This document shows positions 21,543 through 37,309 of a stretch of 64,000 bases of DNA, in pieces. Under the pieces are notes generated by a model, which was not told the DNA's origin, made no database searches, and saw only the letters and a program-made list of their open reading frames with translations. Every line of letters begins with the position of its first letter. Position 1 is the first letter of the stretch. The stretch is from a candidate division LCP-89 bacterium B3_LCP (GTDB lineage: Bacteria; Electryoneota; B3-LCP): positions 29,091 through 93,090 of the forward strand of contig NJBN01000005.1 of NCBI GenBank assembly GCA_005223185.1, written 5' to 3'. The position numbers were made by a program, and so were the translations under genes.

Positions 21543-21575
21543 AGTTGGTCCTACCAAATACTATATCCTAATTTA

Positions 21576-21611: not shown

Positions 21612-22010
21612 TTAATCTACTGGGACGGTTTCTTTTTCGAAGATTTCAACCCAGGTATCGCGCATATCCGTAAGCACGGTTATCACGCTATTTAAAACTT
21701 CAGTATCATTATTCAAGTTTGCCAGAGTTAACTGATGCCCTAAGAACGCGTACAATTTGTTTAACGCTTCCGCCACATCTTTACCTCTTTCCATATCCAG
21801 GGATTTGCGCAGTTCTGCTATAGCATCATAGGCTTTCTGAATGGCAATTCCCTTGTACTGAACGTTACCAGAAGATATGGCAGTACACGCTTCCCGGCAA
21901 AACCTGGTAGCCGCATCGTACACCATCAGGATAAGTTTCTTCTGGTCTGCGGTCTCGATTTGCACCTGATTGTAGGCTTCGTACGGGTTAAAATAGCTCA
22001 TCTGATTCAC
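21612..22010 (-). CDS. fliS: Flagellin export chaperone FliS
   Basis: EAYNQVQIETADQKKLILMVYDAA, LDMERG..VAEALNKLY; follows fliD. Confidence 0.95.
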   Translation of the reverse strand: MNQMSYFNPYEAYNQVQIETADQKKLILMVYDAATRFCREACTAISSGNVQYKGIAIQKAYDAIAELRKSLDMERGKDVAEALNKLYAFLGHQLTLANLNNDTEVLNSVITVLTDMRDTWVEIFEKETVPVD

Positions 22011-23701: not shown

Positions 23702-23724
23702 TTTTCTTTCCTCGTGCAAATGTC

Positions 23725-23853: not shown

Positions 23854-24687
23854 TTACCCAACCAGACTAGCCACCATCTGCGGCACCATATTAGCCTGCG
23901 CTAACATGGAGATACCGGTCTGCATCAGGATTTGCGACTTGACGAAGTTGGACATTTCTGCAGCGATGTCGGCATCCCGGATCATGGACTCGGAAGCTGT
24001 CGCGTTTTCGCGAGCGGTCATGAGTTCCGAAATGGTTCCCTGCAGACGTTCAACATAGGCGCCAAGCCTGGTTCTTTCAGTGTCCTTGGAATCGATGGCA
24101 GTATCAATGGAACTGATGGCGTTCTGGGCACTTGTAGTGCCAGTTATGGCCAACCCACTGATGCCTAATGCTGACGCTGTCATCGCGTTGAAGGTCACGT
24201 GATAGTAATCTTCATTCTGGACATTATGCGTGCCAATATGGAACTTTACACCCGTACTTGAATAGCTGCCATCCAGCAGATAGAGACCGTTATAATTGGT
24301 CACATTGGCGATACGGGTTACTTCTGAAAGAAGCTGTTGGAATTCCACATCGATCGCCGATCTATCCGAAGAAGTCAGCGTCCCATTTGATGCTTGAATA
24401 GCGAGAGCCCGCATACGTACAAGCGTTTCATCCAGAACTGACAATGCACCTTCAGCAGTTTGGATCATGTTTATGCTTGCATTGGCATTTCTTTCCGCTT
24501 CATCCATCGAGGCGATCTGCGCTCTGAAGCGTTCCGAAATAGCCAATCCCGCGGGATCATCCCATGCGTGATTGATCCTCAAGCCCGTTGATAACCGCTG
24601 TACAGCCCGATCCATTTGATTCTGGGTGTTCCAAATACTCCGCTGTGCGGTCATCGACAGGATGTTGTGATTGATGCGTGTACTCAT
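23854..24687 (-). CDS. fliC: Flagellin (minimal, D0-D1 only, 277 aa)
   Basis: RINHNI, RLSTGLRIN..DDPAGLAISE, IQTAEGAL, ESMIRDADIAAEM, MLAQAN. Confidence 0.97.
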   Translation of the reverse strand: MSTRINHNILSMTAQRSIWNTQNQMDRAVQRLSTGLRINHAWDDPAGLAISERFRAQIASMDEAERNANASINMIQTAEGALSVLDETLVRMRALAIQASNGTLTSSDRSAIDVEFQQLLSEVTRIANVTNYNGLYLLDGSYSSTGVKFHIGTHNVQNEDYYHVTFNAMTASALGISGLAITGTTSAQNAISSIDTAIDSKDTERTRLGAYVERLQGTISELMTARENATASESMIRDADIAAEMSNFVKSQILMQTGISMLAQANMVPQMVASLVG

Positions 24688-24727
24688 CCTTTAGTCCTCC
24701 TTGTCCTTTTAGGTTTTAGAGTCCACC
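24687..24727 (-). promoter_or_regulatory. Cluster of GGA motifs in the fliC leader (candidate CsrA/RsmA sites)
   Basis: Five GGA triplets in about 40 nt (AGGGGTGGACTCT...AAGGACAAGGAGGACTAAAGGATG), three of them ANGGA; one overlaps the SD and one the start codon. Confidence 0.45.
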
Positions 24728-24739
24728 CCTGCACCAACT

Positions 24740-24767
24740 ATATCGGCTATGAGGTGGTCAACCTTGA
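24740..24767 (-). promoter_or_regulatory. Sigma28 (FliA) promoter of flagellin
   Basis: Minus strand TCAAG-N15-GCCGATAT, about 50 nt upstream of the fliC ATG. Confidence 0.85.
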
Positions 24768-24804
24768 GAAAAGGGGCTAAAGGCACCCAAAAACGTAGCT
24801 CTTT

Positions 24805-25242
24805 TTACCCAAACCGGTTGAAAAAACGGGAATCCTGCGAATAGGGACGCCTGTAAAGATGTAAAGCTTTACGTCCTTTTTGCAGACCACCAATATCTTT
24901 CTTCAACAGAGCGACTTTTTGTCTAACCTCTGCAACGAGCTGCTCATTTTCTGACTGGAGGTCCTCTAACACCCAGCGGATCTTTCTTCTTTCATGGTGT
25001 TGCCAGGCTTCGGATTTTTCATTTTTTAAGGTTTTTATGACCTTCGATAATCCGGTCAACAGTTCATCGCGCCGGGCGACCTCTTCAGCGGCTTTTTCCC
25101 ATTCACCAGCATCGATTAACTCTTTTATGCGGTCTGTGACTACAGGAAGCTCTCCTAAGAGTTCAACACTATGTCGCAATTTGGGTGACAGAGGTAATCT
25201 ACTTTCCAGTTCTTCCTCTGTTTGTACGTTTACATCAATCAT
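24805..25242 (-). CDS. FliT-like flagellar chaperone
   Basis: 145 aa, all-helical; GEWEKAAEEVARRDELL and C-terminal LHLY...RFFN resemble FliT-type proteins; lies beside fliC/fliD/fliS. Confidence 0.55.
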   Translation of the reverse strand: MIDVNVQTEEELESRLPLSPKLRHSVELLGELPVVTDRIKELIDAGEWEKAAEEVARRDELLTGLSKVIKTLKNEKSEAWQHHERRKIRWVLEDLQSENEQLVAEVRQKVALLKKDIGGLQKGRKALHLYRRPYSQDSRFFNRFG

Positions 25243-25255
25243 GCTAACGTTACCT

Positions 25256-25945
25256 TTAGCTTACAATAGCCTCCGGATTATCCTGCAGGTCCGGCATATT
25301 TTCAGCGTCTTGATCGGACGAAGTCTTCTCTAAGATGCAAAATATCACTTCCCGCCAATCCTGCAGTGCGGGTATTAACTCGTATTCCAACATGTCAGCC
25401 AGCAGCACCCAATCCTGATCGGTCTGTACTTCCAAGATGTTGTCCAGCATCCCAAAAAGGATACGTCGGCTTTCGGCTACAGTCTGTTCATCCTCTCCTT
25501 CAGCTTGAGGAAGGTGCATTAGTTCGAAGCTGATTCCCAGCATTCTACGGCACGATTCCAACGAATGCATGAAGACCTGAATGCCATCTATACACTTCAA
25601 GAATGCCTGGGTAGAACGTTCCATGTTGCCCAGGCGGAATAGTTCTGAAGTACCTTGCAATTCCTGCAGTAGCTGTTGGTGGAAATCCGCTACGCTGTAA
25701 AGCGTCGATCGAGCCAGCGCTTTGGCATCTCCGGTTTGAACTTCCAGAAGTTCGATATCTCCAAGCGGCAACTCTTCCAGGTGCGATTTGTCCTTCCCGG
25801 TGATATCTTCGCCATTCAATTTGACCTCTAACACGCTATCCCCCTGGTCTGCCGCTCGCTCAGAGAGGGTATTCATGAGTTGACCAAAGCTGTCGATCCC
25901 TTCCGTGGGAAAATCTTCGGATTGATTATTGAGGCTTATCTGCAT
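25256..25945 (-). CDS. Hypothetical protein: ThiS-like N-terminus plus helical bundle, in the flagellar glycosylation island
   Basis: 229 aa, acidic; N-terminal MQISLNNQ...LEVKLNGEDI; C-terminal DWVLLADMLEYELIPAL. Confidence 0.6.
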   Translation of the reverse strand: MQISLNNQSEDFPTEGIDSFGQLMNTLSERAADQGDSVLEVKLNGEDITGKDKSHLEELPLGDIELLEVQTGDAKALARSTLYSVADFHQQLLQELQGTSELFRLGNMERSTQAFLKCIDGIQVFMHSLESCRRMLGISFELMHLPQAEGEDEQTVAESRRILFGMLDNILEVQTDQDWVLLADMLEYELIPALQDWREVIFCILEKTSSDQDAENMPDLQDNPEAIVS

Positions 25946-25980: not shown

Positions 25981-27279
25981 TTAACTAAACCAATTTCGAA
26001 CTATGGAATTCATCTTAGCGATGCGATGACTATATGTATGTTCCTGCAGGACTCTCTCGCGACCAGCATCAATGACAGCCTGACGTGCAGTGGGGTTCTT
26101 TTTATAGAACCTCCATTTTTCCTTAAATTCAATGGTGGAATTGAAGGTAACGATTTCCTTTTCGAGTTCGAACTGTCCCTGGATCGATCTCTGTTGGTCG
26201 GTAATAACGAATCCTCCGGCGGCAGGCACGTCGTAGCAGCGCTGATTTAGGGCTGTGGGCATTTGCATACTGGTTAAATTGAGCACGGCGCCTGCATCCC
26301 GATAGACATTGGGAAGCTTTCGATAGTAATCAACAGGCGGTAATACGCTGGTTTTGCCGTTTAAAATCTTCTTCCATCCTTCATCACCGTAAACCTGAAG
26401 AGTATCAATTTCATCAGACCCGGTTAAATCTCTTAAGAAATTATGACGTTGCTGTCGCGTTGCCATCAGGACGAGCGCTGATTCTAAATTCAGGTCGTTC
26501 AATTGATCGCTTTGCGAATCAGCAGCAGGAGAACATTCCGCAATATCGTATCCCATACCCTGGGCTATCTCAGAATATATTTCCCAGGGTGCATTGTTTC
26601 TTTGGAAAGATTCAGACAGGGCAGTCTGACAGAACCTGGTTGTAAGTTCGGCTGCTAAAGCACCATCAGGATTGGTTGAATCGGGCATCAGATGCTGGGG
26701 CAGTTTGCTGAAGGCTTTTACAACTGCAAAGTCCATAGAATCACCCACGAAAACGACTGAATCGGGATTCGATGAATGATCAGTTACCGCCGAATAGGTG
26801 CCGCCCAAATGGCAAAATGTATCAGGGTCTGTGGCTAAGGGCAATGTCTCTATTTTTTTATAGCCCATCTGTCTCAACCAGGATTCGTAAGCTGCTTCCC
26901 AGAGAAAGATACCAATATTGTCGGAAACGTTCGCTAAATGGTTCAACAGGATGTAGCGGGGGCTGTCAACATACCATACTATCCCCGGTAAACTCAACGC
27001 TTCCAGCAGTTCGGTCAAACGCCCATTCTGATCGAAACCCAAATGATTGATGGTTAAGAGAAAATCCGGTCTTTCAGCCTCATAAGCATCTATTATTTGG
27101 TTTAAGAACAGAGAATACAGCCTGGGATTGTACCCGCTTTCGCCAACGTCATTCAAAGGAATGGTAACTGCACGGCAGCCTTGAGCTTGTAGAGCGCGTT
27201 TGACCTCTTTAATGAGGAAATAACCTGAGTCGATCAGTAGAATACAGCTATTATTGCGGTTATCGCTCTTAGTTAACAC
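25981..27279 (-). CDS. CgeB-like (DUF3880 + GT-B) glycosyltransferase
   Basis: WYVDSP, LPLATDP, LNLTS, LNQRCYDVPAAGGFVITD, EHTYSHR. Confidence 0.82.
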   Translation of the reverse strand: MLTKSDNRNNSCILLIDSGYFLIKEVKRALQAQGCRAVTIPLNDVGESGYNPRLYSLFLNQIIDAYEAERPDFLLTINHLGFDQNGRLTELLEALSLPGIVWYVDSPRYILLNHLANVSDNIGIFLWEAAYESWLRQMGYKKIETLPLATDPDTFCHLGGTYSAVTDHSSNPDSVVFVGDSMDFAVVKAFSKLPQHLMPDSTNPDGALAAELTTRFCQTALSESFQRNNAPWEIYSEIAQGMGYDIAECSPAADSQSDQLNDLNLESALVLMATRQQRHNFLRDLTGSDEIDTLQVYGDEGWKKILNGKTSVLPPVDYYRKLPNVYRDAGAVLNLTSMQMPTALNQRCYDVPAAGGFVITDQQRSIQGQFELEKEIVTFNSTIEFKEKWRFYKKNPTARQAVIDAGRERVLQEHTYSHRIAKMNSIVRNWFS

Positions 27280-27306: not shown

Positions 27307-29088
27307 TCAGGCGACATCCATCGTTTCTTCGTTCTCGATTGACTGCCAGCCAATTTGCTCGAAAAGGGCATGCCAATCCTGTAATCCCTGTTTATATAAT
27401 GAACTGATAGTAAATAGCCTGTGATACAGTTTCTCCGTTTCTATCACCAAACTGATGAAATCATCACCCTGAAGGTTCTGTTTTAAGAAATTGAAGTCGA
27501 GAACTAAGTGATTGACCGGTGGCAGTCTGTACCCGGAAACAGTAATTTCAGCATCGATCTTTCCCAGAGTTTCTCCGAACGTTCTGATAAAATCCGGGTC
27601 ATCATCACCAGCAGACCACAGTTCCTGTAAATCCTGACACTGACGCTGACCATCATCAGCAAGGCTCTGCAGACGCAGGATGGAATCATACGTCGGTTCG
27701 AGTTCCTTCCGGAATATGTCAATATCAGGTTCTGAATAATCTCCAATTAGTGGAATAAAGTCCGTGACATTCAATGAATACGCCAAATCTGACTCTTCAC
27801 CGGAAACCATGAGCACTTTCTGCCAGATCAGGCGTGAACAGAGATTAATGTATTCCACGGCGGTAAGCGCGCGTTTTACCACGGGCTTAAGCATCCACAT
27901 TCCTCGGTCATCAAAATCCGTCCGCCAGATATTTACATCTGCAAAGGTCGATTGGCTTTCGAGAGGCACGTCGGTTTTGCCATTCAGCATGTTTTCTGCA
28001 ATCGTGTAAACCGCTTGTGGGGTCACGGTTTCCTGACAGCGATAACGCTGACATTCCACATGGAAACTGCAGGGGTAACAGGACAGCGACGTTTCCATGA
28101 TGTAATGATTTTTCCCATAAGGTCCGGTTTCATGCGATAAAGCGCTGCCGAAACAGAGCGAGAGTACGGGAGTTCCCACTGCCGCAGCGATATGCTGGGT
28201 ACCGGTATCATTGGTAATTAGCAAGTCCATCTTTTTTATTACTGCGCCCAATACCCCTATACTGGTTTTTCCTGCCAGATTTAGAGTATTATTCCCAAGA
28301 GCGCTGGTTATCTCGTGTGCCAATCCCACTTCGCTCGAAGAGCCGAAGACAGCTATGGAGGCACCGCAGTTTTCCTGAAGCTGTTTGCCTAAATCCACGA
28401 AGCATTCTGCGGGCCAGCGTTTACATGCCAAGGAAGCTCCCGGTTGCAAACCTATCTTGAAACCATTTTCTTTATCCGTCCATTTCTTAAGCAGTGCTTC
28501 AGCGCCATCACTGTTGCGCTGTTGCAGTTTCAGGCTGTAATCCTGAATTGCAAAAGGGTTAAAGCCGGATGATGCAGTGTTTACTTCATTGTCATACGCC
28601 AATCCCTTGTTGATGTCAACCAAATTGAAGCGGTTGTGATGACGATTTAGATTTGCAGTAAAAAAGTACCTCGCCCAGGGGTGCCGGATCAGCCTGTAAC
28701 CTTCGGAACCTAAAGTCAATCCCACGGTTTTTTCAACTCCCAGCAAGTAACATATCAATGCTGATATTTTTGAATGGGAGAGGTTCAAAACTTCATCGAA
28801 TTTTTCTGATCTAAGAGAATCAATAAACGTTTTCGTCTCCTGCAACCTGCGGGGAAGTGAATAAATTGCTTCCTTTGATACTGCAACTGAAGCGTTAAAA
28901 TCAAATGGAATCAGTTTATCGATATAGGGTATATGGCGGCAGATATCCATGTAACCCTTTACTGCTAAGTAAGATATGTGTATATCGGGATCAGCCAACT
29001 TCAGTACATGCAGAAGTGGGGATGACTGGAGAATGTCTCCCATGCGGGTTAGATTGATGACCAGTATTTTCTTTTGCTTTTCTCGCAT
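27307..29088 (-). CDS. GT9 (heptosyltransferase-like) glycosyltransferase with a long C-terminal extension
   Basis: ILVINLTRMGDILQ, KRWPAECF, LITNDTGTQHIAAAVGTP, HETGPYG, CYPC..C..C; 593 aa. Confidence 0.85.
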   Translation of the reverse strand: MREKQKKILVINLTRMGDILQSSPLLHVLKLADPDIHISYLAVKGYMDICRHIPYIDKLIPFDFNASVAVSKEAIYSLPRRLQETKTFIDSLRSEKFDEVLNLSHSKISALICYLLGVEKTVGLTLGSEGYRLIRHPWARYFFTANLNRHHNRFNLVDINKGLAYDNEVNTASSGFNPFAIQDYSLKLQQRNSDGAEALLKKWTDKENGFKIGLQPGASLACKRWPAECFVDLGKQLQENCGASIAVFGSSSEVGLAHEITSALGNNTLNLAGKTSIGVLGAVIKKMDLLITNDTGTQHIAAAVGTPVLSLCFGSALSHETGPYGKNHYIMETSLSCYPCSFHVECQRYRCQETVTPQAVYTIAENMLNGKTDVPLESQSTFADVNIWRTDFDDRGMWMLKPVVKRALTAVEYINLCSRLIWQKVLMVSGEESDLAYSLNVTDFIPLIGDYSEPDIDIFRKELEPTYDSILRLQSLADDGQRQCQDLQELWSAGDDDPDFIRTFGETLGKIDAEITVSGYRLPPVNHLVLDFNFLKQNLQGDDFISLVIETEKLYHRLFTISSLYKQGLQDWHALFEQIGWQSIENEETMDVA

Positions 29089-29116
29089 TTAGCGCTTTTT
29101 ATGTAAGTATCATAAT

Positions 29117-30748
29117 TTATGAGACTTCGCTCATCTGAACAGCGCGCTCCACATGCGCATTTAGAGTGTGATTTATCTGTGATATGGATTTCGTCTTCAT
29201 CAAATTGCCAAGATGTTGTTCTATCAGGTGGAAACGGTGCAAAAGCGTATCCATGGCTGCCAGAATCCTTTCCGGTTGACTTAAGCCCTTCGCTGTATCT
29301 CCGCTCAGGCAGTCCATCATATACAGATCGAGTATTGGCCTCATTTGCGGATACTTGGATAAGAGCACTGGCATCTGAATAGCTATTGAATCCATCTGCT
29401 GATCGCTATTTGCGTGTTGATCATTTTCCAGATTGTTCATGGTCTGTTTTGACAATTCGATGAGTTCATTCTTCACGGGTTCGATCACGGCGTAGAATTC
29501 ATCATAGAATTTCGCGGAAACACGTGGCGCTGTTAATAAATCCGTTGATTCAGGATTGAAGATCAGTTCGATAAGAGAGCGCCATAATAGTCGCTGGGAA
29601 TCGTCAGATTTATACTCACCCTTTAGGTTAAGTTTACCCCTGGCATCGAAATATGCGATCTTCTTGATACAACCATCATGGTGATCTAACCGCGATATAT
29701 TCAGCGCATTCATGCAGGTTTCCGCCACTGCAGTGGGAGTGATACTTCTGTGGCATTTGGGATCAGTGCAGAGGATAGATTCGCTGCAGGGGTGGCAGGG
29801 AAGATCGGGTTCAATTGTGATAGCGCCATCGGAATATGGCGCGGTATCCCAAGCTGAAGCCATGGCTAAATAGATTCCCACGCAGGGTTTACCAAGTGAT
29901 GCTGCCAGATGCAGCGATCCGGAATCATTTCCGACAAAAATATCACATTCATCGATCACGCCAGCCAATTGGACGGGATCCGTCTGACCGCATAAGTTCA
30001 GACAATTACCACCTGAATTACGGGCTATTTCTGATGAAATTTCAGCCTCACTATCAGTACCGAGCAGGACGATACCCGCACCTAACTTCGAAATCAATAA
30101 CTCTATTGTTCCCTTCCAGTTACCAGATGACCAGTGCCGTAAAGGATGATTGGCTCCCACTGCTATAGCGATTTTGGCTCTGCCATCGAAGATGTGAAGT
30201 TTATTCCTGGCATATCGAACGGCTTGCTCAGGGACGTTCGGTTTATGAAAATTCCCCCGTTCTCCTGCAGCAATATCACGCTGGACGTCAACCAGATTGA
30301 AACCGTTACAGCTCCTGGATTCTAAAAGAGTGAAGAAATACCGGCTCCAGAAACCGTGCAGGCAGGAACCGGATTCCCGGTCATCCACTCTGCCAAATAG
30401 TTGGCGCGTATCGACAAAACTACAGAACCTGCTTGAAAAGGATGTGTGGGTTAGATTCACTACCTTGTCGGGTTTTATCTGATCAATTTGCTCGAAAATG
30501 TCTTTGAGGCAACTGAGTCCATCAAGGGACATCCCATTTCTGTCCCGCAGAGTGTCCAGTAAAGCATTACCGTCAAAACCTATCACGCCATCAAGCGCTG
30601 GTGACATTTTTGCTAATTCTTGCAGATCGTTCTGAACGATAGCGTAAACTCCTCCATCTCCTGCTGATCTCTGCAAATCCGAGAATGCCGGGAAGTTCTG
30701 CACTATATCACCAATGCGAGCCAGCGATATCACCAAGACGCCACTCAT
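29117..30748 (-). CDS. GT9 glycosyltransferase with C-terminal extension
   Basis: VLVISLARIGDIVQ, FVGNDSGSLHLAASLGKP, WDTAPYS, CHPC..C..C. Start set at ATG 30748. Confidence 0.85.
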   Translation of the reverse strand: MSGVLVISLARIGDIVQNFPAFSDLQRSAGDGGVYAIVQNDLQELAKMSPALDGVIGFDGNALLDTLRDRNGMSLDGLSCLKDIFEQIDQIKPDKVVNLTHTSFSSRFCSFVDTRQLFGRVDDRESGSCLHGFWSRYFFTLLESRSCNGFNLVDVQRDIAAGERGNFHKPNVPEQAVRYARNKLHIFDGRAKIAIAVGANHPLRHWSSGNWKGTIELLISKLGAGIVLLGTDSEAEISSEIARNSGGNCLNLCGQTDPVQLAGVIDECDIFVGNDSGSLHLAASLGKPCVGIYLAMASAWDTAPYSDGAITIEPDLPCHPCSESILCTDPKCHRSITPTAVAETCMNALNISRLDHHDGCIKKIAYFDARGKLNLKGEYKSDDSQRLLWRSLIELIFNPESTDLLTAPRVSAKFYDEFYAVIEPVKNELIELSKQTMNNLENDQHANSDQQMDSIAIQMPVLLSKYPQMRPILDLYMMDCLSGDTAKGLSQPERILAAMDTLLHRFHLIEQHLGNLMKTKSISQINHTLNAHVERAVQMSEVS

Positions 30749-30749
30749 G

Positions 30750-32585
30750 TTAAAGCACCCCCTTTTCCACACCCCAGCGGCGAAACTCGTTCAGCAGTAG
30801 TATCATCCCTTCTGTTCGGGAGAGCTCACCTTCACCTTTTTCTATTTCGCTGGCAATATCCTCCAGGGTTAGCGGACCCCGATCCTTGAAGCGCTCCATT
30901 ACTCCTGCTAAGGCACTACCGGGTTTCTCTCCAACTATGATCTCTTCGGCAGTAGGCAGACCACCTCCCTGCGGCGTCCAGTGGGGATTCCTACCTGCGA
31001 TAACACCCAGCAGTTCTAACATGCGATGTTCGTAAGTGTGCATTGTCAGGACGCGTTGGCGGGCTCTACCGGCAATTTCGATCCTTTCGTGGGGATTAGC
31101 TAAGTAGTGGACGATTCTTTCTCTACAGTCCTGAATAGAATCGAAAGTGATGATTTCATCTCCGACCTCGAAAGATTCTGATAGATATTGACGGTTGTCA
31201 ACCAGTTGGAAAGCACCACAGGCAGCTATTTCGAATGTGCGCGGATTCAGATAATCTCCGAAGGGATTAATGCCGTCATGATAAGTGGAAGAATGTAGAT
31301 TGACGTTTATTTTGGTAGTATTGAAAATCCTGGTGCTGTCCTCGGTGTTTATTCGTTCACCTTCACGCTGGAGCGCAGTTTTCAGAGTGCCCGGGTTGTC
31401 CCAGTCGTTGCCCCAAATTTTGAAGTCCAGATCCAACAATCCCGCAAAGAAATTGCGCCTGTTGTGATAACCTGCTCCAACATGGGATACATTGCCGCCA
31501 AATTCGGATTCTTCCTCTTGAGTTAGCTGCATGGGATTGTGCACATCAGGATTTGCCGCTAAGGGAAGGTAGTTGGGGAAAGGGCAGCCGTTCTCTTTTA
31601 ATTTTTCAGCGTATTCGCCCTTTTGTATGGCGAAGAAATTTTCCACAAAAGGCACAAGAGCCTTCCAGTATTCCAGAATCTGCAGATCTTCTATGAACCA
31701 GAAGGCGGTTTGTATTCCGGCTTTTTTAAGCTCCCGCAATACTTCCGGCGTCAGAGGCGATTGCGCCATTCCTAAAACCAGATCAGCCTTAATTTCCAGT
31801 GCGCGTGCGGTAACTGATTCGGCTAAAAGCGTTGTCAATCCTGAATCTAAGCGCGACTGGTGATTCTTGTTAGAAGTTAAATCGTTTAGATGCTGCATTC
31901 CGGGGTAGAAGACGCTGTTATCGAGCAGTTCACAGCGGTGCCCAAGTTTGTTCAGTGCATCATGAACATGGTAGCTGATGGGCAAAGACCCACCGTACAG
32001 AGGTGAGACCAACAAGATTTTATACCCACCGCGCTTAGTAGTCCACTGTGCCTTAACAATTCCTTTCAGAGTAATATAGAAATCTGGATATAATGAACTG
32101 GAAGCAGGATGTTCTAAAAAAAAGATTTCATCATTCTGTGAGGCACAATAACGAATGATTCTTTCAAAGGATTGTACTGCGCTTAAGCCGACCAACAGGC
32201 GGACTTTATCCGGCAGAAAGCCTACCGGACGATTCGCCAGAACAGCAGCCGCAAGACCCGGATCCTTTTCAACGATGATCAGGCGTTCTGGAGGAATGAT
32301 TTTCAATAGTTCATCAACGTGATAGCCGAATCCTATCCCGCCCAAAACGTAGGTTTTATTATCATTTGCGTGGAGATCACACGACTCCATCCATTTCTGA
32401 GCTTCTGCAATGGGGTTATAAGTGCTGTGCAGACATTTTTTATTCACCACTGGGATGGCTTCACCTGATTTGGCGGTGCGAATTTCTGGATAACCCGGAT
32501 CGTACGATTGGCGCAGGAGGTCAGCTAAGCGTTCATCAGAAGCTGCGATTTTTTTAAGGTTACCTTCTAAGTTGTTAGAGGGCAT
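30750..32585 (-). CDS. Maf-N-like domain fused to a CgeB-like glycosyltransferase
   Basis: N-terminal LHSTYNPIAEA...GGIGFGYHV...IIVEKD (N-domain of motility-accessory-factor proteins); then AFWFIED, YLPLAA, INVNLHSS, NPRTFEIAACGAFQLVD, HTYEHR. Confidence 0.8.
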   Translation of the reverse strand: MPSNNLEGNLKKIAASDERLADLLRQSYDPGYPEIRTAKSGEAIPVVNKKCLHSTYNPIAEAQKWMESCDLHANDNKTYVLGGIGFGYHVDELLKIIPPERLIIVEKDPGLAAAVLANRPVGFLPDKVRLLVGLSAVQSFERIIRYCASQNDEIFFLEHPASSSLYPDFYITLKGIVKAQWTTKRGGYKILLVSPLYGGSLPISYHVHDALNKLGHRCELLDNSVFYPGMQHLNDLTSNKNHQSRLDSGLTTLLAESVTARALEIKADLVLGMAQSPLTPEVLRELKKAGIQTAFWFIEDLQILEYWKALVPFVENFFAIQKGEYAEKLKENGCPFPNYLPLAANPDVHNPMQLTQEEESEFGGNVSHVGAGYHNRRNFFAGLLDLDFKIWGNDWDNPGTLKTALQREGERINTEDSTRIFNTTKINVNLHSSTYHDGINPFGDYLNPRTFEIAACGAFQLVDNRQYLSESFEVGDEIITFDSIQDCRERIVHYLANPHERIEIAGRARQRVLTMHTYEHRMLELLGVIAGRNPHWTPQGGGLPTAEEIIVGEKPGSALAGVMERFKDRGPLTLEDIASEIEKGEGELSRTEGMILLLNEFRRWGVEKGVL

Positions 32586-32640
32586 GTGAATTTCCTTGTA
32601 GAATCGAACGGAATTTATATCTGTGTTCAGTGATTTTCAT

Positions 32641-34446
32641 CTATGACTGGTTAAAGAGAACTCTTCTCCTTGTGGTGCTATTTTTCGCAATGGCTTCGGG
32701 GCTGAAATCGAAATTACGACTCTGGTTGTGCACGTCGTCAAGTAACAACTGCTTCTCATCATCAGATATGGGTATCTCTTCAATCGCTTCCCATTTAGCT
32801 GGGTCATTTGATTTAGTAAGGAATTGCACCAGCATTTCCATGCCTTCTTTACGGCAGTATGAGCTCAATAGCATCTTGGCGAATTTCAATCGTAGTTCGG
32901 GATTCCAAGGCTGCAATTCGACAGCTTTTCCTAAAACGATAATGGCAAAATCAGGAGAATTGCAACGCTGCAGTAGATCTGCACAATGGGTCAATGCCGT
33001 CCAGGTTTTGGGCGAAACTACAATCGCCATCTGCAAAGCATCGAAGGCATTCCAGCGGCAAGGGTGCGACCCAGAACGGTTGATGCCATTTTCCAGAAGC
33101 CAGCCGGCTTCTTCCATGAGATCTGCTAAATAGAGATAATCTGATGCTAAAAATTCTTCAGTTTTAGCTAACTGACCCAAATAGTCAGGATCATAATCGC
33201 TGATGCGCAGATGATGACAGAGGCTTTGTAGGGCATCGGCGGCAGATTCATAATCCGCCAGCATCTTTTGACACCAGAACATTCCCCAATGTGCTCGCAA
33301 GCAAGAGGGATCACAATCGAGGGCTTTTTTCAGGGATTCCAGCGCGTCTTGAGGTTTGTCATCCTCCATAGCTTGAGCGGCGAGTTCAAAATGGAGATCA
33401 GCCGAATCATTTTTAGATGACGTGGCGTCCAGCAGAAGGCGCACACCTTCATCTTTTAATTTCCCCACGGGTTGATCGGGCCAACGGTTTGCCAACTGCA
33501 GGAAGGATTTGCCAAAATGATAGGATCTGTGGGTATCAACGGTATTATTTATGTCAGGCAAGCACTCCTGGACAATTTGCATGAATTGTTCAGCACGTTT
33601 GTCAATCGTATGCTTTTCCTTTATTATTTTGGCTCCTTCATCGGCAATCTGCTTCCGTTTAGAATCATCATTAAGCAGGGTTTCAACATTTCTTATCAGA
33701 TTTTCCGGTCTGAAGGAAACCAGGTGCTTCCCATCTTTAAAGAATTCCCTCCAGCTACCATCGCTTTCTTCCGTTAAAAGGCAGGTTCCACAAGCCATGA
33801 TCTCCAAAGTGCGCAGATTAAGTCCGGGGAACATGTTTTCGTTCAAGACTATCTTAGACTGGTTGTAGATCGATCGGACTGCATTAGGTGGCAGTGAACG
33901 GTGACCTTCACCATCGAATATTTCCACACTGAAATGCCTCTGTAATTCCTGCAGAAGCCAGCTCCTTTTAGGTCGAACTGCCGGATTAAGTGAACCAACG
34001 AAAGCGATATCATAGAGGGTGTCTTCTTTCTGTGGGTAATACAAATTGTGATCTGCTGCCAGAGGCATCCAGTGGATACGTTCTGATTCCTGCGGATGCA
34101 GCTTACAGATTTCATCCACGACAGCCTTTTGATCCAAAAAAGCCAGATCAAAGCCAAGAGCGAAATCGAACTGCCAGAATTTGTTCATGGGGCTGTCTAT
34201 GCCGAAGAAAACTTTGGGAATCTGGACTCTTTCCAATCCCAACGGTACGGACCGTAAATTCAAAGAATCGGAAAAGAGCAAAATGTCAGGTTTAAAGGGG
34301 CAATGCGACAGAATCTGTTCAATGGTAATGGTATTCAATTCGTACTGAAAATCCGCTAACGTGTCCGGACTGGCGTAGAACAGCTCACAGCCCAAATCGC
34401 GTAGACTTTTTACGAAGTAGGAGTCGTTTACTAATAAGATGCGCAT
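32641..34446 (-). CDS. GT-B (CgeB/Glyco_trans_1_2-like) glycosyltransferase with C-terminal TPR repeats
   Basis: WMPLAAD, DIAFVGS, KIVLNE, NLRTLEIMACGTCLLTE, KHTIDKR, then TPR-like helices (ALESLKKALDCDP, LGKAVELQP). Confidence 0.78.
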   Translation of the reverse strand: MRILLVNDSYFVKSLRDLGCELFYASPDTLADFQYELNTITIEQILSHCPFKPDILLFSDSLNLRSVPLGLERVQIPKVFFGIDSPMNKFWQFDFALGFDLAFLDQKAVVDEICKLHPQESERIHWMPLAADHNLYYPQKEDTLYDIAFVGSLNPAVRPKRSWLLQELQRHFSVEIFDGEGHRSLPPNAVRSIYNQSKIVLNENMFPGLNLRTLEIMACGTCLLTEESDGSWREFFKDGKHLVSFRPENLIRNVETLLNDDSKRKQIADEGAKIIKEKHTIDKRAEQFMQIVQECLPDINNTVDTHRSYHFGKSFLQLANRWPDQPVGKLKDEGVRLLLDATSSKNDSADLHFELAAQAMEDDKPQDALESLKKALDCDPSCLRAHWGMFWCQKMLADYESAADALQSLCHHLRISDYDPDYLGQLAKTEEFLASDYLYLADLMEEAGWLLENGINRSGSHPCRWNAFDALQMAIVVSPKTWTALTHCADLLQRCNSPDFAIIVLGKAVELQPWNPELRLKFAKMLLSSYCRKEGMEMLVQFLTKSNDPAKWEAIEEIPISDDEKQLLLDDVHNQSRNFDFSPEAIAKNSTTRRRVLFNQS

Positions 34447-35924
34447 TTTGCCGCCTCTTTTGGGGTTATCATTTCTCGTCCGCCTATCAAGTCAACGCAA
34501 ATCGGTTCCAGTATCTGGCGGGCTTTTTCTTTGGCTCTGGTCACTTTATCATTGGGGATGGTGCGCGGTAACTGCAGATCAGCAGCAGCCGCTGACCAAC
34601 TTTTTAGAATATTTTTATGAATATCTGATGGTTCGATATCAGGCAAGCCATACATGCGGTTATCCAGCAAATGTGTCGGTTCACTCAAATTAAAGATTGT
34701 TCTGACAATGGTAGTGAAAGCGTCTATTTCCGGCACGGATTTCCGTATTCCCAGCAATTGATAAGACTGACCTTCTTTTGTGCGTTTTGAGCGGAATAAC
34801 TGCAAACCAACACCAAACCGGTAGTCATCTCTTATTGTATCCGATCTGGCGAGGCTGCTCAGCAGTCCGCTTATGCTACCAGAGGCAGCATAGGTAGTCA
34901 GACACTTATAACCACATTGTTCAGCAAGCAAGGCATTGCAGGGATAATCGTTGCAATCAGGCGTCAAGATCAAATGATCATTCCCTAAAGGACCAGTGTC
35001 ATGCAAGCCAGCATCGCCAAAATAGATGCCCAATACTCTGGTTCCAACAGCAGCAGCCCAGTGTAAAGGACCGGTGTCAACTCCTATCACAAGATCCACT
35101 GTTCGGAAGAGCGCCAGTAACTCTGCGGGTGAAAGCTCCCCTACCAAATTAACCACCCTCTCTGCCAGAGGATGCGAAGCATTCAGAAACCTACGCGCTA
35201 ATTCCTTTTCGGCTTTACCACCTACCAAGACACAGTTGGGCCGGATATCCTCTGGGACTCCCTTCCACCAGTTGGCGAAAACTTTGGGATCAATCCGCCG
35301 CGCTTTTCCACCCGAACCCACTATAAACGCCCAGGTCTGCCTCTGGGGATTCATTTCAAATTGGTTAATAAGAGGGATTCTACCTCTTCTCTCTTTCGGT
35401 TCGGACAGACGGTAATCGGTTAATTCAGTCTTTGGACAACCCGCCAGATATCCCCACAGATCACTCAGGTGGATCCGGTTCCATTCGCGGGCTTTAGCGA
35501 TAGCCCGCAGGTAAGACCGCAGGAGAATCAGGCGATGGTTTACCCATCCATACGGATCTTCACTTCTAACTATTGAGGAAATAATATCACAGACCGGATG
35601 ATCGTTCAAGGAAAAGACGGAACAGGATGCAAGATTGGATATTGCCTGGATGTCCGCATGGAGCTTCTGTATTACCTGTGGGACGTTTAGATCTTCTTCA
35701 GTGGCAATTTTCCTCCACAAGCATGTGTCAATCGTATGGACACCGTCAATCCCAGGCAGTTGTTCAGCCCAGTCCTCAACTATATTGTCACAGATCAGAT
35801 TTATTTTAAAATAACTTTTTAGCCTATTAATCAAAGGCAGCATCTGCACTAAATCGCCCAGACGCGCCAATTGGCATATGGTTGTTCGTTCCTGGGAATG
35901 GGCGCTTTGGGACTCTGACATCAT
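34431..35924 (-). CDS. GT9 glycosyltransferase with C-terminal extension
   Basis: ICQLARLGDLVQMLP, VIGVDTGPLHWAAAVGT, HDTGPLG, CNDYPC..C..C; 497 aa. Confidence 0.83.
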   Translation of the reverse strand: MMSESQSAHSQERTTICQLARLGDLVQMLPLINRLKSYFKINLICDNIVEDWAEQLPGIDGVHTIDTCLWRKIATEEDLNVPQVIQKLHADIQAISNLASCSVFSLNDHPVCDIISSIVRSEDPYGWVNHRLILLRSYLRAIAKAREWNRIHLSDLWGYLAGCPKTELTDYRLSEPKERRGRIPLINQFEMNPQRQTWAFIVGSGGKARRIDPKVFANWWKGVPEDIRPNCVLVGGKAEKELARRFLNASHPLAERVVNLVGELSPAELLALFRTVDLVIGVDTGPLHWAAAVGTRVLGIYFGDAGLHDTGPLGNDHLILTPDCNDYPCNALLAEQCGYKCLTTYAASGSISGLLSSLARSDTIRDDYRFGVGLQLFRSKRTKEGQSYQLLGIRKSVPEIDAFTTIVRTIFNLSEPTHLLDNRMYGLPDIEPSDIHKNILKSWSAAAADLQLPRTIPNDKVTRAKEKARQILEPICVDLIGGREMITPKEAAKCASY

Positions 35925-35962: not shown

Positions 35963-36889
35963 TTACAGGAAATCTGCCAATGATGGCTGAATAACCATAC
36001 TACCCACATTCAAAGCAACCTGATAGGCGTTCTGCTCCAGGGTCATATCGGTCATCAGTTCGACTAAGTCGGCATCTTCCTTTTCCGAAAGCTGACCAGT
36101 CAGAGCTGTCTCCTTGAATAAAAGGCTGCTTTGCAGGTTAGTCAGTCTGGTTACTCTGGATCCAGCTAAAGATGCAAACGCTGAAGTAGTGTCCATAACG
36201 GTGTCAATCTGGGTGATGGTCTCACCCACAAGATCTACATCACCGGCTTGTAATGCGTTTCGCAAATTTATCAGAACCTGAAACATATCTTCACTGCCAC
36301 CAGATCCGTCTGGCTGGAAAAGTTCTGCACCGGCAATGTTGATCTGAATGCTTTCGCTCGAGCCTACCTGCCGCATGACCGAACCGGTCGTTCCATCCGG
36401 ATTAGCAATTATGGCGGTAATCTGATCGGTTACTGGATCCCGAGTAGCTATAAACGGGGAGGTATTAGTGTTGGTACCGCCGAACATATATTTTCCCGAA
36501 TACTGGTCATTGGCAAGGGCAAATATATTCTCCAGATAGCTATCAACTTCGTTTGCAAGATCAGCCATAGCTTCCGCTCCCAAAGCGCTGTTGCTGCCCT
36601 CGACAGCGTCAGCACGAGCCTGAGTTAAGATATCATTGAGCTGTTGAATTACCGATTCAGTACTCCCCAGCCAGTTCACCCCGCTCTGAACGTTCTCCTG
36701 GAACTGTGAATTCTGGCTTAGATGCGAACGCAACTCTAAAATCAAGCCAGCAGCCGCAGGATCATCCGAAGCGTAGAAAACTTGCTTCCCTGACGATAAC
36801 TGCTGCTGAAGATCATTCAAAGATCTCATCCGTTCATTCAGAGTACGGATCAGATCGTTTACCATCATGTTATTGGTTATTCGCTGCAT
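35963..36889 (-). CDS. flgL: Hook-filament junction protein FlgL
   Basis: MQRITNNMM, QQQLSSGKQVFYASDDPAAA, GKYMFGG, EDADLVELMTD. Confidence 0.95.
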   Translation of the reverse strand: MQRITNNMMVNDLIRTLNERMRSLNDLQQQLSSGKQVFYASDDPAAAGLILELRSHLSQNSQFQENVQSGVNWLGSTESVIQQLNDILTQARADAVEGSNSALGAEAMADLANEVDSYLENIFALANDQYSGKYMFGGTNTNTSPFIATRDPVTDQITAIIANPDGTTGSVMRQVGSSESIQINIAGAELFQPDGSGGSEDMFQVLINLRNALQAGDVDLVGETITQIDTVMDTTSAFASLAGSRVTRLTNLQSSLLFKETALTGQLSEKEDADLVELMTDMTLEQNAYQVALNVGSMVIQPSLADFL

Positions 36890-36922: not shown

Positions 36923-37309
36923 TCATCCGGCTAAACTCTGAACCATGCCCTGTAATTCGTTCATGTTAAACGGTTTCGGCAGCAAGAAGTCCACGATTCT
37001 ATCACTGAGCATACGATGAACGTCATCATTGGCGTATGAGGTCATCAGCGCCAGGGGTAGTTCAGGGAATTTCTGCCGCACTCTTTTCACCAGTGCAAGA
37101 CCGTCCATGCCCTCCATTTTGACGTCGGAAATCAGCAGATCAACGGAACTCTCATCGATCAAATTCAAGGCGGCTTCACCGCTGCTGACGCCGTGCACTT
37201 CATAACCTAGATCAGCTATCATCTCAGCGATTATTTCGCGGACGTCACGTTCGTCGTCCACGACCAGCACTTTTTTGGGCTTAAGTCTTACGGCTGCTAA
37301 AGCTTCCAT
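36923..37309 (-). CDS. Single-domain response regulator (receiver only)
   Basis: VLVVDDE, LLISDVKM (phospho-Asp), LMTSY, PKPF; no output domain. Confidence 0.9.
   Translation of the reverse strand: MEALAAVRLKPKKVLVVDDERDVREIIAEMIADLGYEVHGVSSGEAALNLIDESSVDLLISDVKMEGMDGLALVKRVRQKFPELPLALMTSYANDDVHRMLSDRIVDFLLPKPFNMNELQGMVQSLAG

What the first reader, a model, noticed from the sequence alone, without database searches (positions are those of the whole stretch)
27307..35924. Three extended GT9 paralogues sharing a T(G/A)P(Y/L) + four-Cys motif: possible protein heptosyltransferases
Seen: the GT9s are 497-593 aa and each has, after the D(S/T)GxxH motif, (H/W)(E/D)T(G/A)P(Y/L) and a cluster CxPC-x-C-x-C (CYPCSFHVECQRYRC; CHPCSESILCTDPKC; CNDYPCNALLAEQCGYKC), then a divergent helical tail. 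Known: LPS heptosyltransferases WaaC/WaaF are about 320-350 aa; the related TibC/AAH enzymes heptosylate Ser residues of proteins and bind iron through cysteines. Inference: the tails are acceptor-recognition modules for a protein or protein-linked glycan, and the cysteines bind a structural metal.
Basis: partly seen in the sequence, partly recalled or inferred. Interest (0 to 1): 0.68.

Follow-up and report, generated by a model that had tools for sequence, protein, structure and literature searches.

The report
Flagellar-island GT9 glycosyltransferases with helical tails
Three distantly related family-9 sugar-transferase genes with extra C-terminal domains sit with three CgeB-like transferases between the flagellar genes flgL and fliC; several environmental phyla conserve this uncharacterised gene set, which most likely puts sugars on flagellar filament proteins, but the Cys/TGP motif that drew attention is an ordinary family-9 trait and no special link to TibC/AAH.

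Summary
There are three PF01075 (GT9) proteins of 593, 551 and 497 aa, and all the quoted motifs are present.

**Motif.** The T-G-P-Y and four-Cys motif is not diagnostic. Ordinary 332-378 aa GT9 enzymes from Nitrospira, Verrucomicrobia and others carry it at the same position.

**TibC.** The family profile does not match TibC: -2.9 bits, against 116-122 bits for WaaF and WaaQ. TibC is also absent from the Foldseek top 50. No TibC-type N-terminal beta-barrel is seen, and the Cys spacing differs.

**Context.** The context still supports a protein-directed role. The genes lie in a flgK-flgL...fliC-fliD-fliS operon-like block. With them are three CgeB-like GTs (one with TPRs), a DUF8042 protein and a FliT-like protein.

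**Conservation.** The block recurs in synteny in Nitrospirota, Calditrichota, Acidobacteriota and several unclassified MAGs. In some genomes GT9a is fused to its CgeB-like neighbour.

**Tails.** The GT9a tail (beta-hairpin plus helical bundle, AF2 pLDDT 89-92) has no PDB fold match. It occurs only behind GT9 cores (478 clusters). The GT9b tail is homologous to it; the GT9c tail is not.

**Best reading.** These are cytoplasmic glycosyltransferases of an uncharacterised flagellum-associated glycosylation module. The heptose donor and flagellin acceptor are inferred, not shown.

The parts
27307..29088 (-). GT9a, 593 aa: GT-B family-9 core (res 1-368), Cys4 knuckle (res 337-351), then a beta-hairpin plus helical-bundle tail (res 372-593)
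   Evidence: PF01075 1.9e-31. AF2 pLDDT 92.5, pTM 0.93. Foldseek best hits are WaaF 1psw 1.3e-16, 3tov and WaaC. Orthologues with the tail reach 45-57% identity.
27310..27975 (-). GT9a C-terminal tail domain (res 372-593): hairpin E385-392/E398-402, helices 410-427, 456-492, 498-521, 523-537, 544-570
   Evidence: AF2. No Pfam match. No PDB fold match at E<=0.001. 478 clusters carry the domain; in the full-length proteins among the 150 listed it lies behind a GT9 core.
28036..28080 (-). GT9a Cys cluster CYPCSFHVECQRYRC (C337, C340, C346, C351), a putative structural metal knuckle
   Evidence: Each Cys is >=90% conserved in alignment A1. The same cluster occurs in ordinary short GT9 enzymes and is absent from the Hydrogenedentota members.
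29117..30772 (-). GT9b, 551 aa: GT9 core, Cys cluster (res 326-340, DNA 29753-29797) and a tail homologous to that of GT9a
   Evidence: PF01075 5.5e-22. hhalign of the GT9a tail profile against the GT9b tail gives prob 85%, E 5.8e-6, 147 columns. Orthologues are in L003 and L001.
34431..35924 (-). GT9c, 497 aa: the most divergent GT9 core, variant Cys cluster (res 324-341, DNA 34902-34955), and a shorter tail with no detectable relation to the others
   Evidence: PF01075 4.4e-14. The orthologue subfamily lies directly after flgL in L002, L003 and L009 and upstream of the Cge611-like and GT9a-like genes in L001 and the Nitrospira loci. NJ bootstrap for the subfamily is 88%. Nitrospira members lack the Cys cluster and most of the tail.
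30750..32585 (-). CgeB-like GT (611 aa): unassigned N-terminal ~190 aa, then DUF3880 and Glyco_trans_1_2
   Evidence: PF13524 2.7e-36, PF12996 4.9e-6. A homologue stands immediately upstream of the GT9a-type gene in most related loci.
32641..34446 (-). CgeB-like GT with C-terminal TPR repeats (601 aa)
   Evidence: PF13524 1.4e-22, TPR_19 1.4e-6.
25981..27279 (-). CgeB-like GT (432 aa) directly downstream of GT9a; fused to GT9a in other genomes
   Evidence: PF13524 1.3e-27. Eleven ~1000-aa proteins are colinear fusions of full GT9a and full Cge432.
25256..25945 (-). DUF8042-family protein (229 aa; PF27299 + PF26154), a conserved partner of the long GT9
   Evidence: Precomputed Pfam domains, and all homologues named 'hypothetical'. 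Found by jackhmmer in 50 of the 82 related loci.
24805..25242 (-). FliT-like small helical protein (145 aa)
   Evidence: PF05400 FliT 1.1e-5, 26.6 bits, below the cut-off of 29.5. An iterated HMM recovers 25 of the 27 ORFs that follow DUF8042, including the Desulfovibrio loci.
23854..24687 (-). Flagellin (277 aa, D0/D1-only type), the most likely acceptor
   Evidence: Flagellin_N 1.2e-43, Flagellin_C 4.2e-22. Flagellins of 269-280 aa accompany the module in other loci.
35963..36889 (-). FlgL, the upstream border of the island
   Evidence: Flagellin_N 1.2e-18. The same flgK-flgL border is seen in L002, L003, L009 and L028.

Best explanation
The three genes encode cytoplasmic GT-B glycosyltransferases of CAZy/Pfam family 9. 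They belong to a distinct, uncharacterised clade that travels with CgeB-like glycosyltransferases, a DUF8042 protein and a FliT-like protein.

In this genome the whole set is inserted between flgL and fliC and is probably co-transcribed with the late flagellar genes. The most likely function is stepwise O-glycosylation of a late flagellar export substrate in the cytoplasm before export. Flagellin is the first candidate; FliD or the junction proteins are alternatives. Each of the six transferases would add one sugar of an oligosaccharide or serve different sites.

The GT9 cores keep the family's catalytic and donor-binding motifs, so an ADP-heptose-type donor is the default guess.

The Cys4 cluster is an ancestral GT9 structural metal knuckle. 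The C-terminal hairpin plus helical bundle of GT9a and GT9b is a clade-specific add-on. Its role is either acceptor recognition or docking to the partner proteins (the CgeB-like GT or DUF8042).

**Shown:** family membership, fold, motif conservation, synteny, fusions, and distance from TibC.

**Inferred:** enzymatic activity, donor, acceptor, and the role of the tail.
For: **Family and fold**
- PF01075 passes its cut-off for all three.
- The AF2 model of GT9a has pLDDT 92.5. Its best PDB matches are WaaF, 3tov and WaaC.
- G17-D18, D294, H299 and T321 are invariant in 69 homologues; the K-R-W-P segment is in the family consensus and W225 is at least 90% conserved.
- GD and D(S/T)GxxH are kept in all three paralogues.

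**Not LPS enzymes**
- All WaaC/F/Q equivalog scores are below cut-off.

**Context**
- The window order is flgF-G-A-H-I-J-N-K, REC, flgL, GT9c, CgeB-TPR, CgeB, GT9b, GT9a, CgeB, DUF8042, FliT-like, fliC, fliD, fliS, flgM.
- Intergenic gaps inside the island are at most 55 nt or the genes overlap. No internal terminator stands out above chance.

**Conservation**
- The same arrangement is seen in L001, L002 and L003.
- 18 related loci carry flagellin, FliD, FlgL or FlgK within 10 kb.
- Hits come from Nitrospirota, Nitrospinota, Calditrichota, Hydrogenedentota, Desulfovibrionales, Acidobacteriota and Zixibacteria.
- Each paralogue has its own orthologue in L003 with 100% NJ bootstrap. The module GT9s separate from the LPS-type GT9s, E. 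coli WaaC/F/Q/U and TibC in 133 of 200 bootstraps.

**Functional coupling**
- Colinear GT9a+Cge432 fusion proteins exist.
- The GT9-DUF8042-FliT-like trio persists even where flagellin is not adjacent.
- A TPR-bearing GT is present, as in known flagellin glycosyltransferases. FlmG is described as 'modular' in the PMC7591256 title. That its substrate-binding module is a TPR domain, and that GmaR also carries TPRs, is from memory.
- The island has no flippase, polymerase or sugar-nucleotide synthesis genes. This fits a cytoplasmic protein acceptor.
Against: - No biochemical or glycoproteomic data exist for any member. Nothing was found in the literature held here.
- In Nitrospinales (L010) and Desulfovibrio (L062) the module lies among housekeeping or unrelated genes, with no flagellar gene within 10 kb. 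A flagellar acceptor is therefore not proven for the whole clade.
- The FliT-like assignment is below Pfam's cut-off.
- No ADP-heptose pathway gene is in the window. Only sporadic neighbours appear in related loci: GmhA in L015, GmhB in L012 and an HldE-like domain in L026.
- The tail shows no detectable similarity to flagellar chaperones or any known substrate-binding fold.
- GT9c has lost several positions that are nearly invariant in the GT9a family, including W225, T275, N293 and Y324. It may be less active or have another specificity.
Confidence: 0.6

Rival explanations
1. They are ordinary LPS or glycolipid core heptosyltransferases (WaaC/WaaF/WaaQ-like) that happen to lie in a flagellar locus. 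The tails would be irrelevant decorations.
For: The closest solved structures and sequences are WaaF, WaaC and 3tov. The TGPYG + Cys4 motif is shared with short LPS-type GT9s.
Against: All NCBIfam equivalog scores are below cut-off: for example 119 vs 134.6 bits for HepII and 100.9 vs 185.3 bits for HepI with GT9a, and much lower for GT9b and GT9c. No Kdo transferase, WaaL or other core genes are nearby. Synteny with flagellar genes holds across phyla, and there are fusions to CgeB-like GTs. The module GT9s group apart from the LPS-type GT9s.
Confidence: 0.08
2. They are TibC/AAH-type (BAHT) protein O-heptosyltransferases. An iron-finger would drive oligomerisation and processive hyper-heptosylation of a beta-helical substrate.
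For: Four Cys sit just before the C-terminal helix, as in TibC. The TibC segment C370-FECTRLITGAQVNGV lines up with the fourth Cys and the 'VTPQAV' helix of the profile. A protein acceptor is plausible from context.
Against: The family profile scores -2.9 bits on TibC, against 116-122 bits on WaaF and WaaQ. There is no TibC hit in the PDB at E<=10 or in the Foldseek top 50. The NCBIfam scan at E<=0.01 returned only LPS heptosyltransferase models for the three proteins. TibC's Cys spacing is x2/x15/x11 and it has an N-terminal beta-barrel of residues 1-97 (PMC4358343); the GT9a model starts its Rossmann strand at residue 7. No autotransporter gene is adjacent.
Confidence: 0.03
3. The module glycosylates something other than flagellin. 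This could be another late export substrate (the FliD cap, which has a Ser/Thr run, or FlgK/FlgL). Alternatively it could be a non-flagellar cytoplasmic or surface protein, with the flagellar location in this genome being secondary.
For: The core trio or module occurs away from flagellar genes in Nitrospinales and Desulfovibrio. The conserved small partner is FliT-like, and FliT is the FliD chaperone in Salmonella (from memory). FliD here contains ESTSSSSTSTIT.
Against: In 18 loci the module directly abuts flagellin or fliD. The accompanying flagellins are of a uniform short type of 269-280 aa. Flagellin is by far the commonest glycosylated flagellar protein (general knowledge).
Confidence: 0.22
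4. One or more of the paralogues, most plausibly GT9c, is catalytically dead. It would act as a scaffold, chaperone or regulator in the manner of bifunctional GmaR.
For: GT9c has the weakest PF01075 score and lacks several near-invariant positions. Its tails vary widely in length between orthologues.
Against: The GD and D-T-G-x-x-H motifs are retained in GT9c and its orthologues. No DNA-binding or regulator-binding domain is detectable.
Confidence: 0.07

Closest known systems
LPS heptosyltransferases WaaF (HepII, PDB 1psw), WaaC (HepI, 2gt1/2h1h/6dfe) and the uncharacterised Veillonella GT9 3tov
   Same: Same Pfam/CAZy family and GT-B fold. The N-terminal GD, the K-R-W-P segment and D(S/T)GxxH are conserved. 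In non-enterobacterial members so are the TGPYG + CxPC...C...C knuckle and the following 'I/V-T/S-P-x-x-V' helix.
   Different: These proteins are 150-250 aa longer, with a clade-specific hairpin plus helical-bundle domain. They score below all curated equivalog cut-offs. They are encoded in a flagellar late-gene block beside CgeB-like GTs, not in an LPS core cluster.
BAHT family: TibC (ETEC H10407, L084:28641-29861) and AAH, autotransporter O-heptosyltransferases
   Same: A GT-B heptosyltransferase-like catalytic domain acting (TibC) or presumed to act (here) on a protein in the cytoplasm. Both have a four-Cys metal site inserted just before the C-terminal helix.
   Different: There is no detectable sequence relationship. 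No N-terminal beta-barrel is seen in the GT9a model. The Cys spacing differs: x2/x5/x4 here against x2/x15/x11 in TibC. No autotransporter partner is present. TibC features are taken from PMC4358343.
Flagellin glycosylation islands and their transferases (Maf/PseE-type, FlmG of Caulobacter, GmaR of Listeria, FgtA of Burkholderia/Paenibacillus)
   Same: A cluster of GT genes sits next to the flagellin gene inside the late flagellar operons. It includes a TPR-bearing GT. There is no flippase, which implies cytoplasmic modification before type III export.
   Different: None of the known flagellin GT families is GT9 or CgeB-like. There are no nonulosonic-acid or other sugar-synthesis genes here. 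DUF8042 and the GT9 tail have no counterpart. Apart from the FlmG title and abstract start, this comparison rests on my own knowledge.
CgeB (Bacillus subtilis spore-crust maturation protein; Pfam Glyco_trans_1_2/DUF3880)
   Same: The three non-GT9 transferases of the island carry the same Pfam domains. CgeB is thought to glycosylate surface proteins (from memory).
   Different: The setting is flagellar rather than sporulation. One copy is fused to TPRs, and in other genomes a copy is fused to the GT9.

Membership tests
Glycosyltransferase family 9 (Pfam PF01075 / CAZy GT9) | PF01075 score above the gathering cut-off (22 bits) | tested here: met
   109.7, 78.7 and 52.8 bits for GT9a, GT9b and GT9c.
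Glycosyltransferase family 9 (Pfam PF01075 / CAZy GT9) | GT-B two-Rossmann fold closest to solved GT9 structures | tested here: met
   The GT9a AF2 model (pLDDT 92.5) hits 1psw at 1.3e-16 (TM-target 0.77), 3tov, and 2h1h/6dfe/2gt1. GT9b and GT9c were not modelled.
Glycosyltransferase family 9 (Pfam PF01075 / CAZy GT9) | N-terminal G-D (catalytic base; WaaC D13 from memory) and the C-domain D-(S/T)-G-x-x-H donor motif | tested here: met
   GD is at residues 17-18, 21-22 and 23-24. NDTGTQH, NDSGSLH and VDTGPLH are present. D18, D294 and H299 are invariant in 69 homologues.
LPS heptosyltransferases I/II/III (NCBIfam TIGR02193, TIGR02195, TIGR02201, RfaC/RfaF/RfaQ equivalogs) | Score at or above the curated equivalog cut-off | tested here: not met
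   Best case is GT9a at 119 bits against 134.6 for TIGR02195. All other model and protein pairs score far lower.
LPS heptosyltransferases I/II/III | Location in an LPS inner-core gene cluster (waaA, other core GTs, kinases, ADP-heptose genes) | tested here: not met
   The neighbours are flagellar genes and CgeB-like GTs. No GmhA/GmhB/HldE/HldD homologue is in the window.
LPS heptosyltransferases I/II/III | Transfer of heptose from ADP-heptose to Kdo2-lipid A or Hep-Kdo2-lipid A | not testable with these tools
   Needs an enzyme assay or complementation.
BAHT (TibC/AAH autotransporter heptosyltransferases) | Detectable sequence similarity to TibC/AAH | tested here: not met
   Profile A1 scores -2.9 bits on TibC. 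TibC is absent from PDB searches at E<=10 and from the Foldseek top 50.
BAHT (TibC/AAH autotransporter heptosyltransferases) | N-terminal flattened beta-barrel (TibC residues 1-97) preceding the catalytic domain | tested here: not met
   In the GT9a model the first Rossmann strand is at residues 7-11. The TibC feature is from PMC4358343.
BAHT (TibC/AAH autotransporter heptosyltransferases) | Iron-finger with Cys339/342/358/370 spacing (CX2C-X15-C-X11-C) and a beta-hairpin thumb that drive dodecamer assembly | tested here: not met
   The spacing here is CX2C-X5-C-X4-C for GT9a and GT9b, and CX4C-X7-C-X4-C for GT9c. The only hairpin (385-402) lies after the C-terminal helix, not inside the C-lobe. 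Metal identity and oligomeric state are not testable here.
BAHT (TibC/AAH autotransporter heptosyltransferases) | Adjacent autotransporter substrate gene | tested here: not met
   tibC abuts tibA in H10407. No autotransporter is in the window near the GT9 genes.
Flagellar glycosylation island | GT genes embedded between late flagellar genes and adjacent to flagellin, conserved in other genomes | tested here: met
   The window order is flgL-[8 genes]-fliC-fliD-fliS. The same order is seen in L001-L003, L009, L028 and others.
Flagellar glycosylation island | Flagellin (or another axial protein) actually carries a glycan that depends on these genes | not testable with these tools
   Needs mass spectrometry of flagellar proteins and mutants.

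The most novel reading that the evidence does not exclude
A widespread, previously unrecognised flagellar protein glycosylation system exists in Nitrospirota, Desulfovibrionales, Zixibacteria-like and other environmental lineages. In it, family-9 (heptosyltransferase-type) enzymes with a dedicated helical domain work in a complex with CgeB-like transferases and DUF8042. Together they build a heptose-containing O-glycan on short D0/D1-only flagellins. That would be a second, independent origin of protein heptosylation besides TibC/AAH.
Probability: 0.35. Interest if true: 0.75.

Novelty: new variant of a known kind. Interest (0 to 1): 0.55.

Why it matters
Flagellin glycosylation affects filament assembly, motility, phage and immune recognition. 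Its enzymology is known for only a handful of transferase families, mostly from pathogens.

Here a different enzyme set (GT9, CgeB-like and DUF8042) occupies the same genomic niche in several poorly studied phyla. These include nitrite oxidisers and sulfate reducers.

If GT9 enzymes do act on flagellar proteins, three things follow:
- The family would extend from lipid A-core acceptors to proteins by a route independent of TibC/AAH.
- Two domains of unknown function (DUF8042/PF27299 and the GT9 tail) would gain a function.
- The system would be experimentally tractable, because cultured Desulfovibrio species carry the core trio.

The negative result also matters. The Cys4/TGPYG motif should not be used as a marker of protein heptosyltransferases.

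Tried and rejected
- **Tail as a flagellar chaperone-like domain (FliS/FlgN/FliT).** A neighbouring locus has a GT2-FlgN fusion, which prompted the idea. Foldseek of the tail model gave no hit at E<=0.001, only designed or generic helical bundles. Pfam gave nothing at E<=10. The idea has no support.
- **Tail as a promiscuous targeting module on several enzyme types.** A profile search of 1.84 billion representatives found it only behind GT9 cores or in GT9-CgeB fusions. Rejected.
- **N-terminus of the 611-aa CgeB-like protein as a Maf-type domain.** There is no NCBIfam or Pfam hit, and only a weak COMT-like Rossmann match at E 0.024. Unresolved.
- **'All long GT9s are this family'.** Wrong. 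The Nitrospira 517-635 aa GT9s beside short GT9s are GT9-GmhB fusions of the LPS type and cluster with WaaF.
- **Promoter and terminator scan of the island.** Counts were no higher than in shuffles.
- **Trees.** The first attempt timed out. The second was an artefact of undefined distances. Only searches are used.
- **Sequencing runs holding the locus.** None listed.
- **Literature** on GT9, CgeB or DUF8042 in flagellar loci: nothing found.
- **Desulfovibrio and Nitrospinales neighbourhoods.** No flagellar genes within 10 kb.

Full report
**1. What is there**

The region holds eight tightly packed minus-strand genes between flgL (35963-36889) and the flagellin gene (23854-24687). In order of transcription they are:
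- GT9c (34431-35924, 497 aa)
- a CgeB-like GT with TPR repeats (32641-34446)
- a CgeB-like GT with DUF3880 (30750-32585)
- GT9b (29117-30772, 551 aa)
- GT9a (27307-29088, 593 aa)
- a third CgeB-like GT (25981-27279)
- a 229-aa DUF8042-family protein (25256-25945)
- a 145-aa FliT-like protein (24805-25242)

Pfam assigns PF01075 to the three GT9s at 1.9e-31, 5.5e-22 and 4.4e-14, and PF13524 to the three CgeB-like proteins. Upstream lie flgF, flgG, flgA, flgH, flgI, flgJ, flgN, flgK and a REC-only regulator. Downstream lie fliD, fliS and a FlgM-like gene.

Gaps inside the island are at most 55 nt or the genes overlap. The terminator scan shows nothing above the shuffle expectation. A sigma-28-like motif, TCAAGGTT-N12-GCCGATAT, lies in the 117-nt gap before fliC. 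Its range also contains two non-GT9 genes.

**2. Are the motifs special? No.**

I scanned one genome per GTDB species with the most conserved peptide of the family. This returned 80 loci. I classified their ORFs by BLAST against the window's proteins.

Among the short GT9 ORFs (332-421 aa, all but one 332-378 aa) from Nitrospira, Verrucomicrobia, Poribacteria, Planctomycetes and others, the N-D-(S/T)-G-x-x-H motif was found in 23. In 22 of these it is followed by (R/E)TGPYG and a CxPC-x4-7-C-x5-8-C cluster at the same distance. One example is NDSGPMHIAAAVGTPVVALFGPTSAVRTGPYGVGHTVLSGKVPCSPCFSRACHNTVPLECLRLVSPQQV.

E. coli WaaF has lost the cysteines but keeps the following helix, 'IDITPQRV', which matches GT9a's 'ETVTPQAV'. 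The motif is therefore an ancestral feature of WaaF-like GT9 enzymes.

Within the GT9a family the four Cys are each at least 90% conserved. In the Hydrogenedentota members all four are gone together. That all-or-none pattern fits a structural metal site. The metal itself is unknown.

**3. Relation to TibC/AAH**

The TibC features below come from PMC4358343:
- an N-terminal beta-barrel, residues 1-97
- a beta-hairpin thumb
- an iron finger made of Cys339, 342, 358 and 370

I retrieved TibC from ETEC H10407, next to tibA (L084:28641-29861). I retrieved WaaF, WaaC, WaaQ and WaaU from E. coli K-12. The profile of GT9a and 68 homologues gives these scores:

| Protein | Score (bits) |
|---|---|
| WaaQ | 122 |
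| WaaF | 116 |
| WaaC | 72 |
| WaaU | 12 |
| TibC | -2.9 |

The only aligned TibC stretch is C370 and the helix after it.

- The same profile finds no TibC chain in the PDB at E<=10, while 3tov, WaaF and WaaC score 3e-46, 2e-32 and 6e-19.
- Foldseek of the GT9a model ranks WaaF, 3tov and WaaC first and has no TibC chain in the top 50.
- The model starts its first Rossmann strand at residue 7, so there is no beta-barrel.
- The Cys spacing differs: x2/x5/x4 here against x2/x15/x11 in TibC.

Membership in the BAHT family is rejected. A functional analogy, a GT-B heptosyltransferase-like enzyme acting on a protein, is not excluded.

**4. They are also not standard LPS enzymes**

All NCBIfam WaaC/WaaF/WaaQ equivalogs score below cut-off. 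No LPS core or ADP-heptose gene is in the 64-kb window.

**5. A distinct, conserved clade and module**

A search of 5.8 billion proteins with GT9a gave 400 hits. All 120 listed hits are closest to GT9a rather than GT9b or GT9c, and most align through the tail. They come from Zixibacteria, Binatia, Hydrogenedentes, delta-proteobacterial and unclassified MAGs.

Gene neighbourhoods of two distant homologues on megabase contigs show the same order: flgK-flgL, TPR-GT, GT9, CgeB-like, GT9, DUF8042, FliT-like, flagellin, fliD, fliS.

Across the 82 loci:
- Flagellin, FliD, FlgL or FlgK lies within the flanks in 18 loci.
- DUF8042 is present in 50 loci.
- The small ORF after DUF8042 is homologous to the window's FliT-like protein in 25 of the 27 cases collected. 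These include cultured Desulfovibrio species where no flagellin is nearby.

Eleven ~1000-aa proteins are colinear fusions of a complete GT9a, tail included, with a complete copy of the downstream CgeB-like protein. This is classic evidence for functional coupling.

A neighbour-joining tree of GT9 cores pairs each window paralogue with its own orthologue in L003 at 100% bootstrap. It recovers the GT9c subfamily at 88%. It separates all module GT9s from LPS-type GT9s, the E. coli enzymes and TibC in 133 of 200 replicates. The triplication is therefore old, and the three are distinct subfamilies rather than recent copies. They are 23-28% identical over the core only.

**6. The tails**

AlphaFold2 with 69 sequences gives a confident full-length model of GT9a (pLDDT 92.5, pTM 0.93). 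Its parts are:
- GT-B core to residue 368
- the Cys knuckle as a coil at 337-351
- a beta-hairpin at 385-402
- helices at 410-427, 456-492, 498-521, 523-537 and 544-570

The tail modelled alone gives the same picture (pLDDT 88.9). It has no Pfam match and no PDB fold match at E<=0.001.

A profile of the tail finds 478 clusters among 1.84 billion representative proteins, 289 of them at E<=1e-10. In the full-length hits the tail sits at about residues 355-590 behind a GT9 core, or inside the GT9-CgeB fusions. It is a clade-specific extension, not a mobile module.

hhalign links it to the GT9b tail (probability 85%, E 5.8e-6, 147 columns). Only the hairpin region aligns with GT9c, and not significantly. 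Nitrospira GT9c orthologues lack both the Cys cluster and most of the tail. 'Three similar tails' is therefore only partly true.

In GT-B enzymes the last core helix returns to the N-terminal, acceptor-binding domain. A domain appended after it is therefore well placed to contact the acceptor or a partner protein. This is inference from the topology, because I could not inspect coordinates.

**7. Most likely mechanism**

These are cytoplasmic transferases encoded with late flagellar genes. One partner has TPR repeats. The island has no flippase, polymerase or sugar-synthesis genes. This is the signature of flagellar protein O-glycosylation before type III export.

Six transferases suggest an oligosaccharide or several sites. 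The donor of the GT9s is most simply ADP-heptose, because GD, the K-R-W-P segment and D(S/T)GxxH are conserved. The equivalence to WaaC D13, K192 and D261 is from memory.

Support from the neighbourhoods is weak. GmhA, GmhB or an HldE-like domain lies next to the module in only three loci.

The acceptor is most likely the 277-aa flagellin. FliD, which has a Ser/Thr run, is an alternative. Two cases caution against generalising:
- In Nitrospinales a three-gene module sits between pgk and rng. It consists of a 1143-aa GT/GT/methyltransferase/TPR protein, a Cge611-like protein and a GT9a-like protein.
- In Desulfovibrio falkowii the trio lies beside an RND efflux system.

**8. Novelty**

The searchable literature held nothing on GT9, CgeB-like or DUF8042 proteins in flagellar loci. 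I rate this a new variant of a known kind: a flagellar glycosylation island built from enzyme families not previously tied to flagella.

Its appeal is moderate. It is conserved, structurally well defined and testable in cultured Desulfovibrio. Every functional statement remains inferential.

Noticed in passing
window 36923-37309 (-): A stand-alone receiver-domain (CheY-like) response regulator is inserted between flgK and flgL (PF00072 3.1e-26).
   Followed up: no
window 44235-45095 (-): A family-2 glycosyltransferase gene lies directly upstream of flgF at the other end of the flagellar block.
   Followed up: no
window 24688-24804 (-): A sigma-28-like promoter motif, TCAAGGTT-N12-GCCGATAT, lies in the 117-nt gap upstream of fliC. 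This suggests fliC has its own class III promoter while the island reads through from flgKL.
   Followed up: partly
window 21072-21557 (-): A FlgM-like protein of 161 aa contains two FlgM-motif stretches. FliS is at 21612-22010.
   Followed up: no
window 30750-32585 (-), residues 1-190: The 611-aa CgeB-like GT has an unassigned N-terminal domain. Its only match is a weak catechol-O-methyltransferase-like Rossmann hit (E 0.024). It is conserved in the homologues that precede GT9a-type genes in most loci.
   Followed up: partly
window 22028-23719 (-): The FliD cap protein contains a Ser/Thr run, ESTSSSSTSTIT, which could be a glycosylation target.
   Followed up: no
L002 8713-9990: In a related island a 425-aa protein combines a GT2 domain with a FlgN (flagellar chaperone) domain, which suggests chaperone-guided glycosylation.
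   Followed up: no
L010 4734-11743: A Nitrospinales genome has a compact three-gene version between pgk and rng, with no flagellar gene within 10 kb. It consists of a 1143-aa protein (two GT1/CgeB-like domains, a SAM methyltransferase and TPRs), a Cge611-like protein and a GT9a-like protein.
   Followed up: partly
L048 1126-2814, L054, L058, L060, L064, L067, L078, L059: A different kind of long GT9 occurs in Nitrospira. These are GT9 fused C-terminally to a GmhB-like heptose-bisphosphate phosphatase and stand beside short GT9 genes (an LPS-type cluster). They group with WaaF in the tree.
   Followed up: partly
GT9a model vs PDB: Foldseek also matched chains of plant chloroplast NDH-PSI supercomplexes (9grx_1, 7f9o_6, 7wff_a) at E about 1e-5 to 1e-7. 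These appear to be GT9-like folds used as structural subunits.
   Followed up: no
L062 8433-9911: In Desulfovibrio falkowii the gene just upstream of the long GT9 encodes a protein with a T6SS VgrG3-like C-terminal domain (PF21277 5.8e-31). It follows an RND efflux operon.
   Followed up: no
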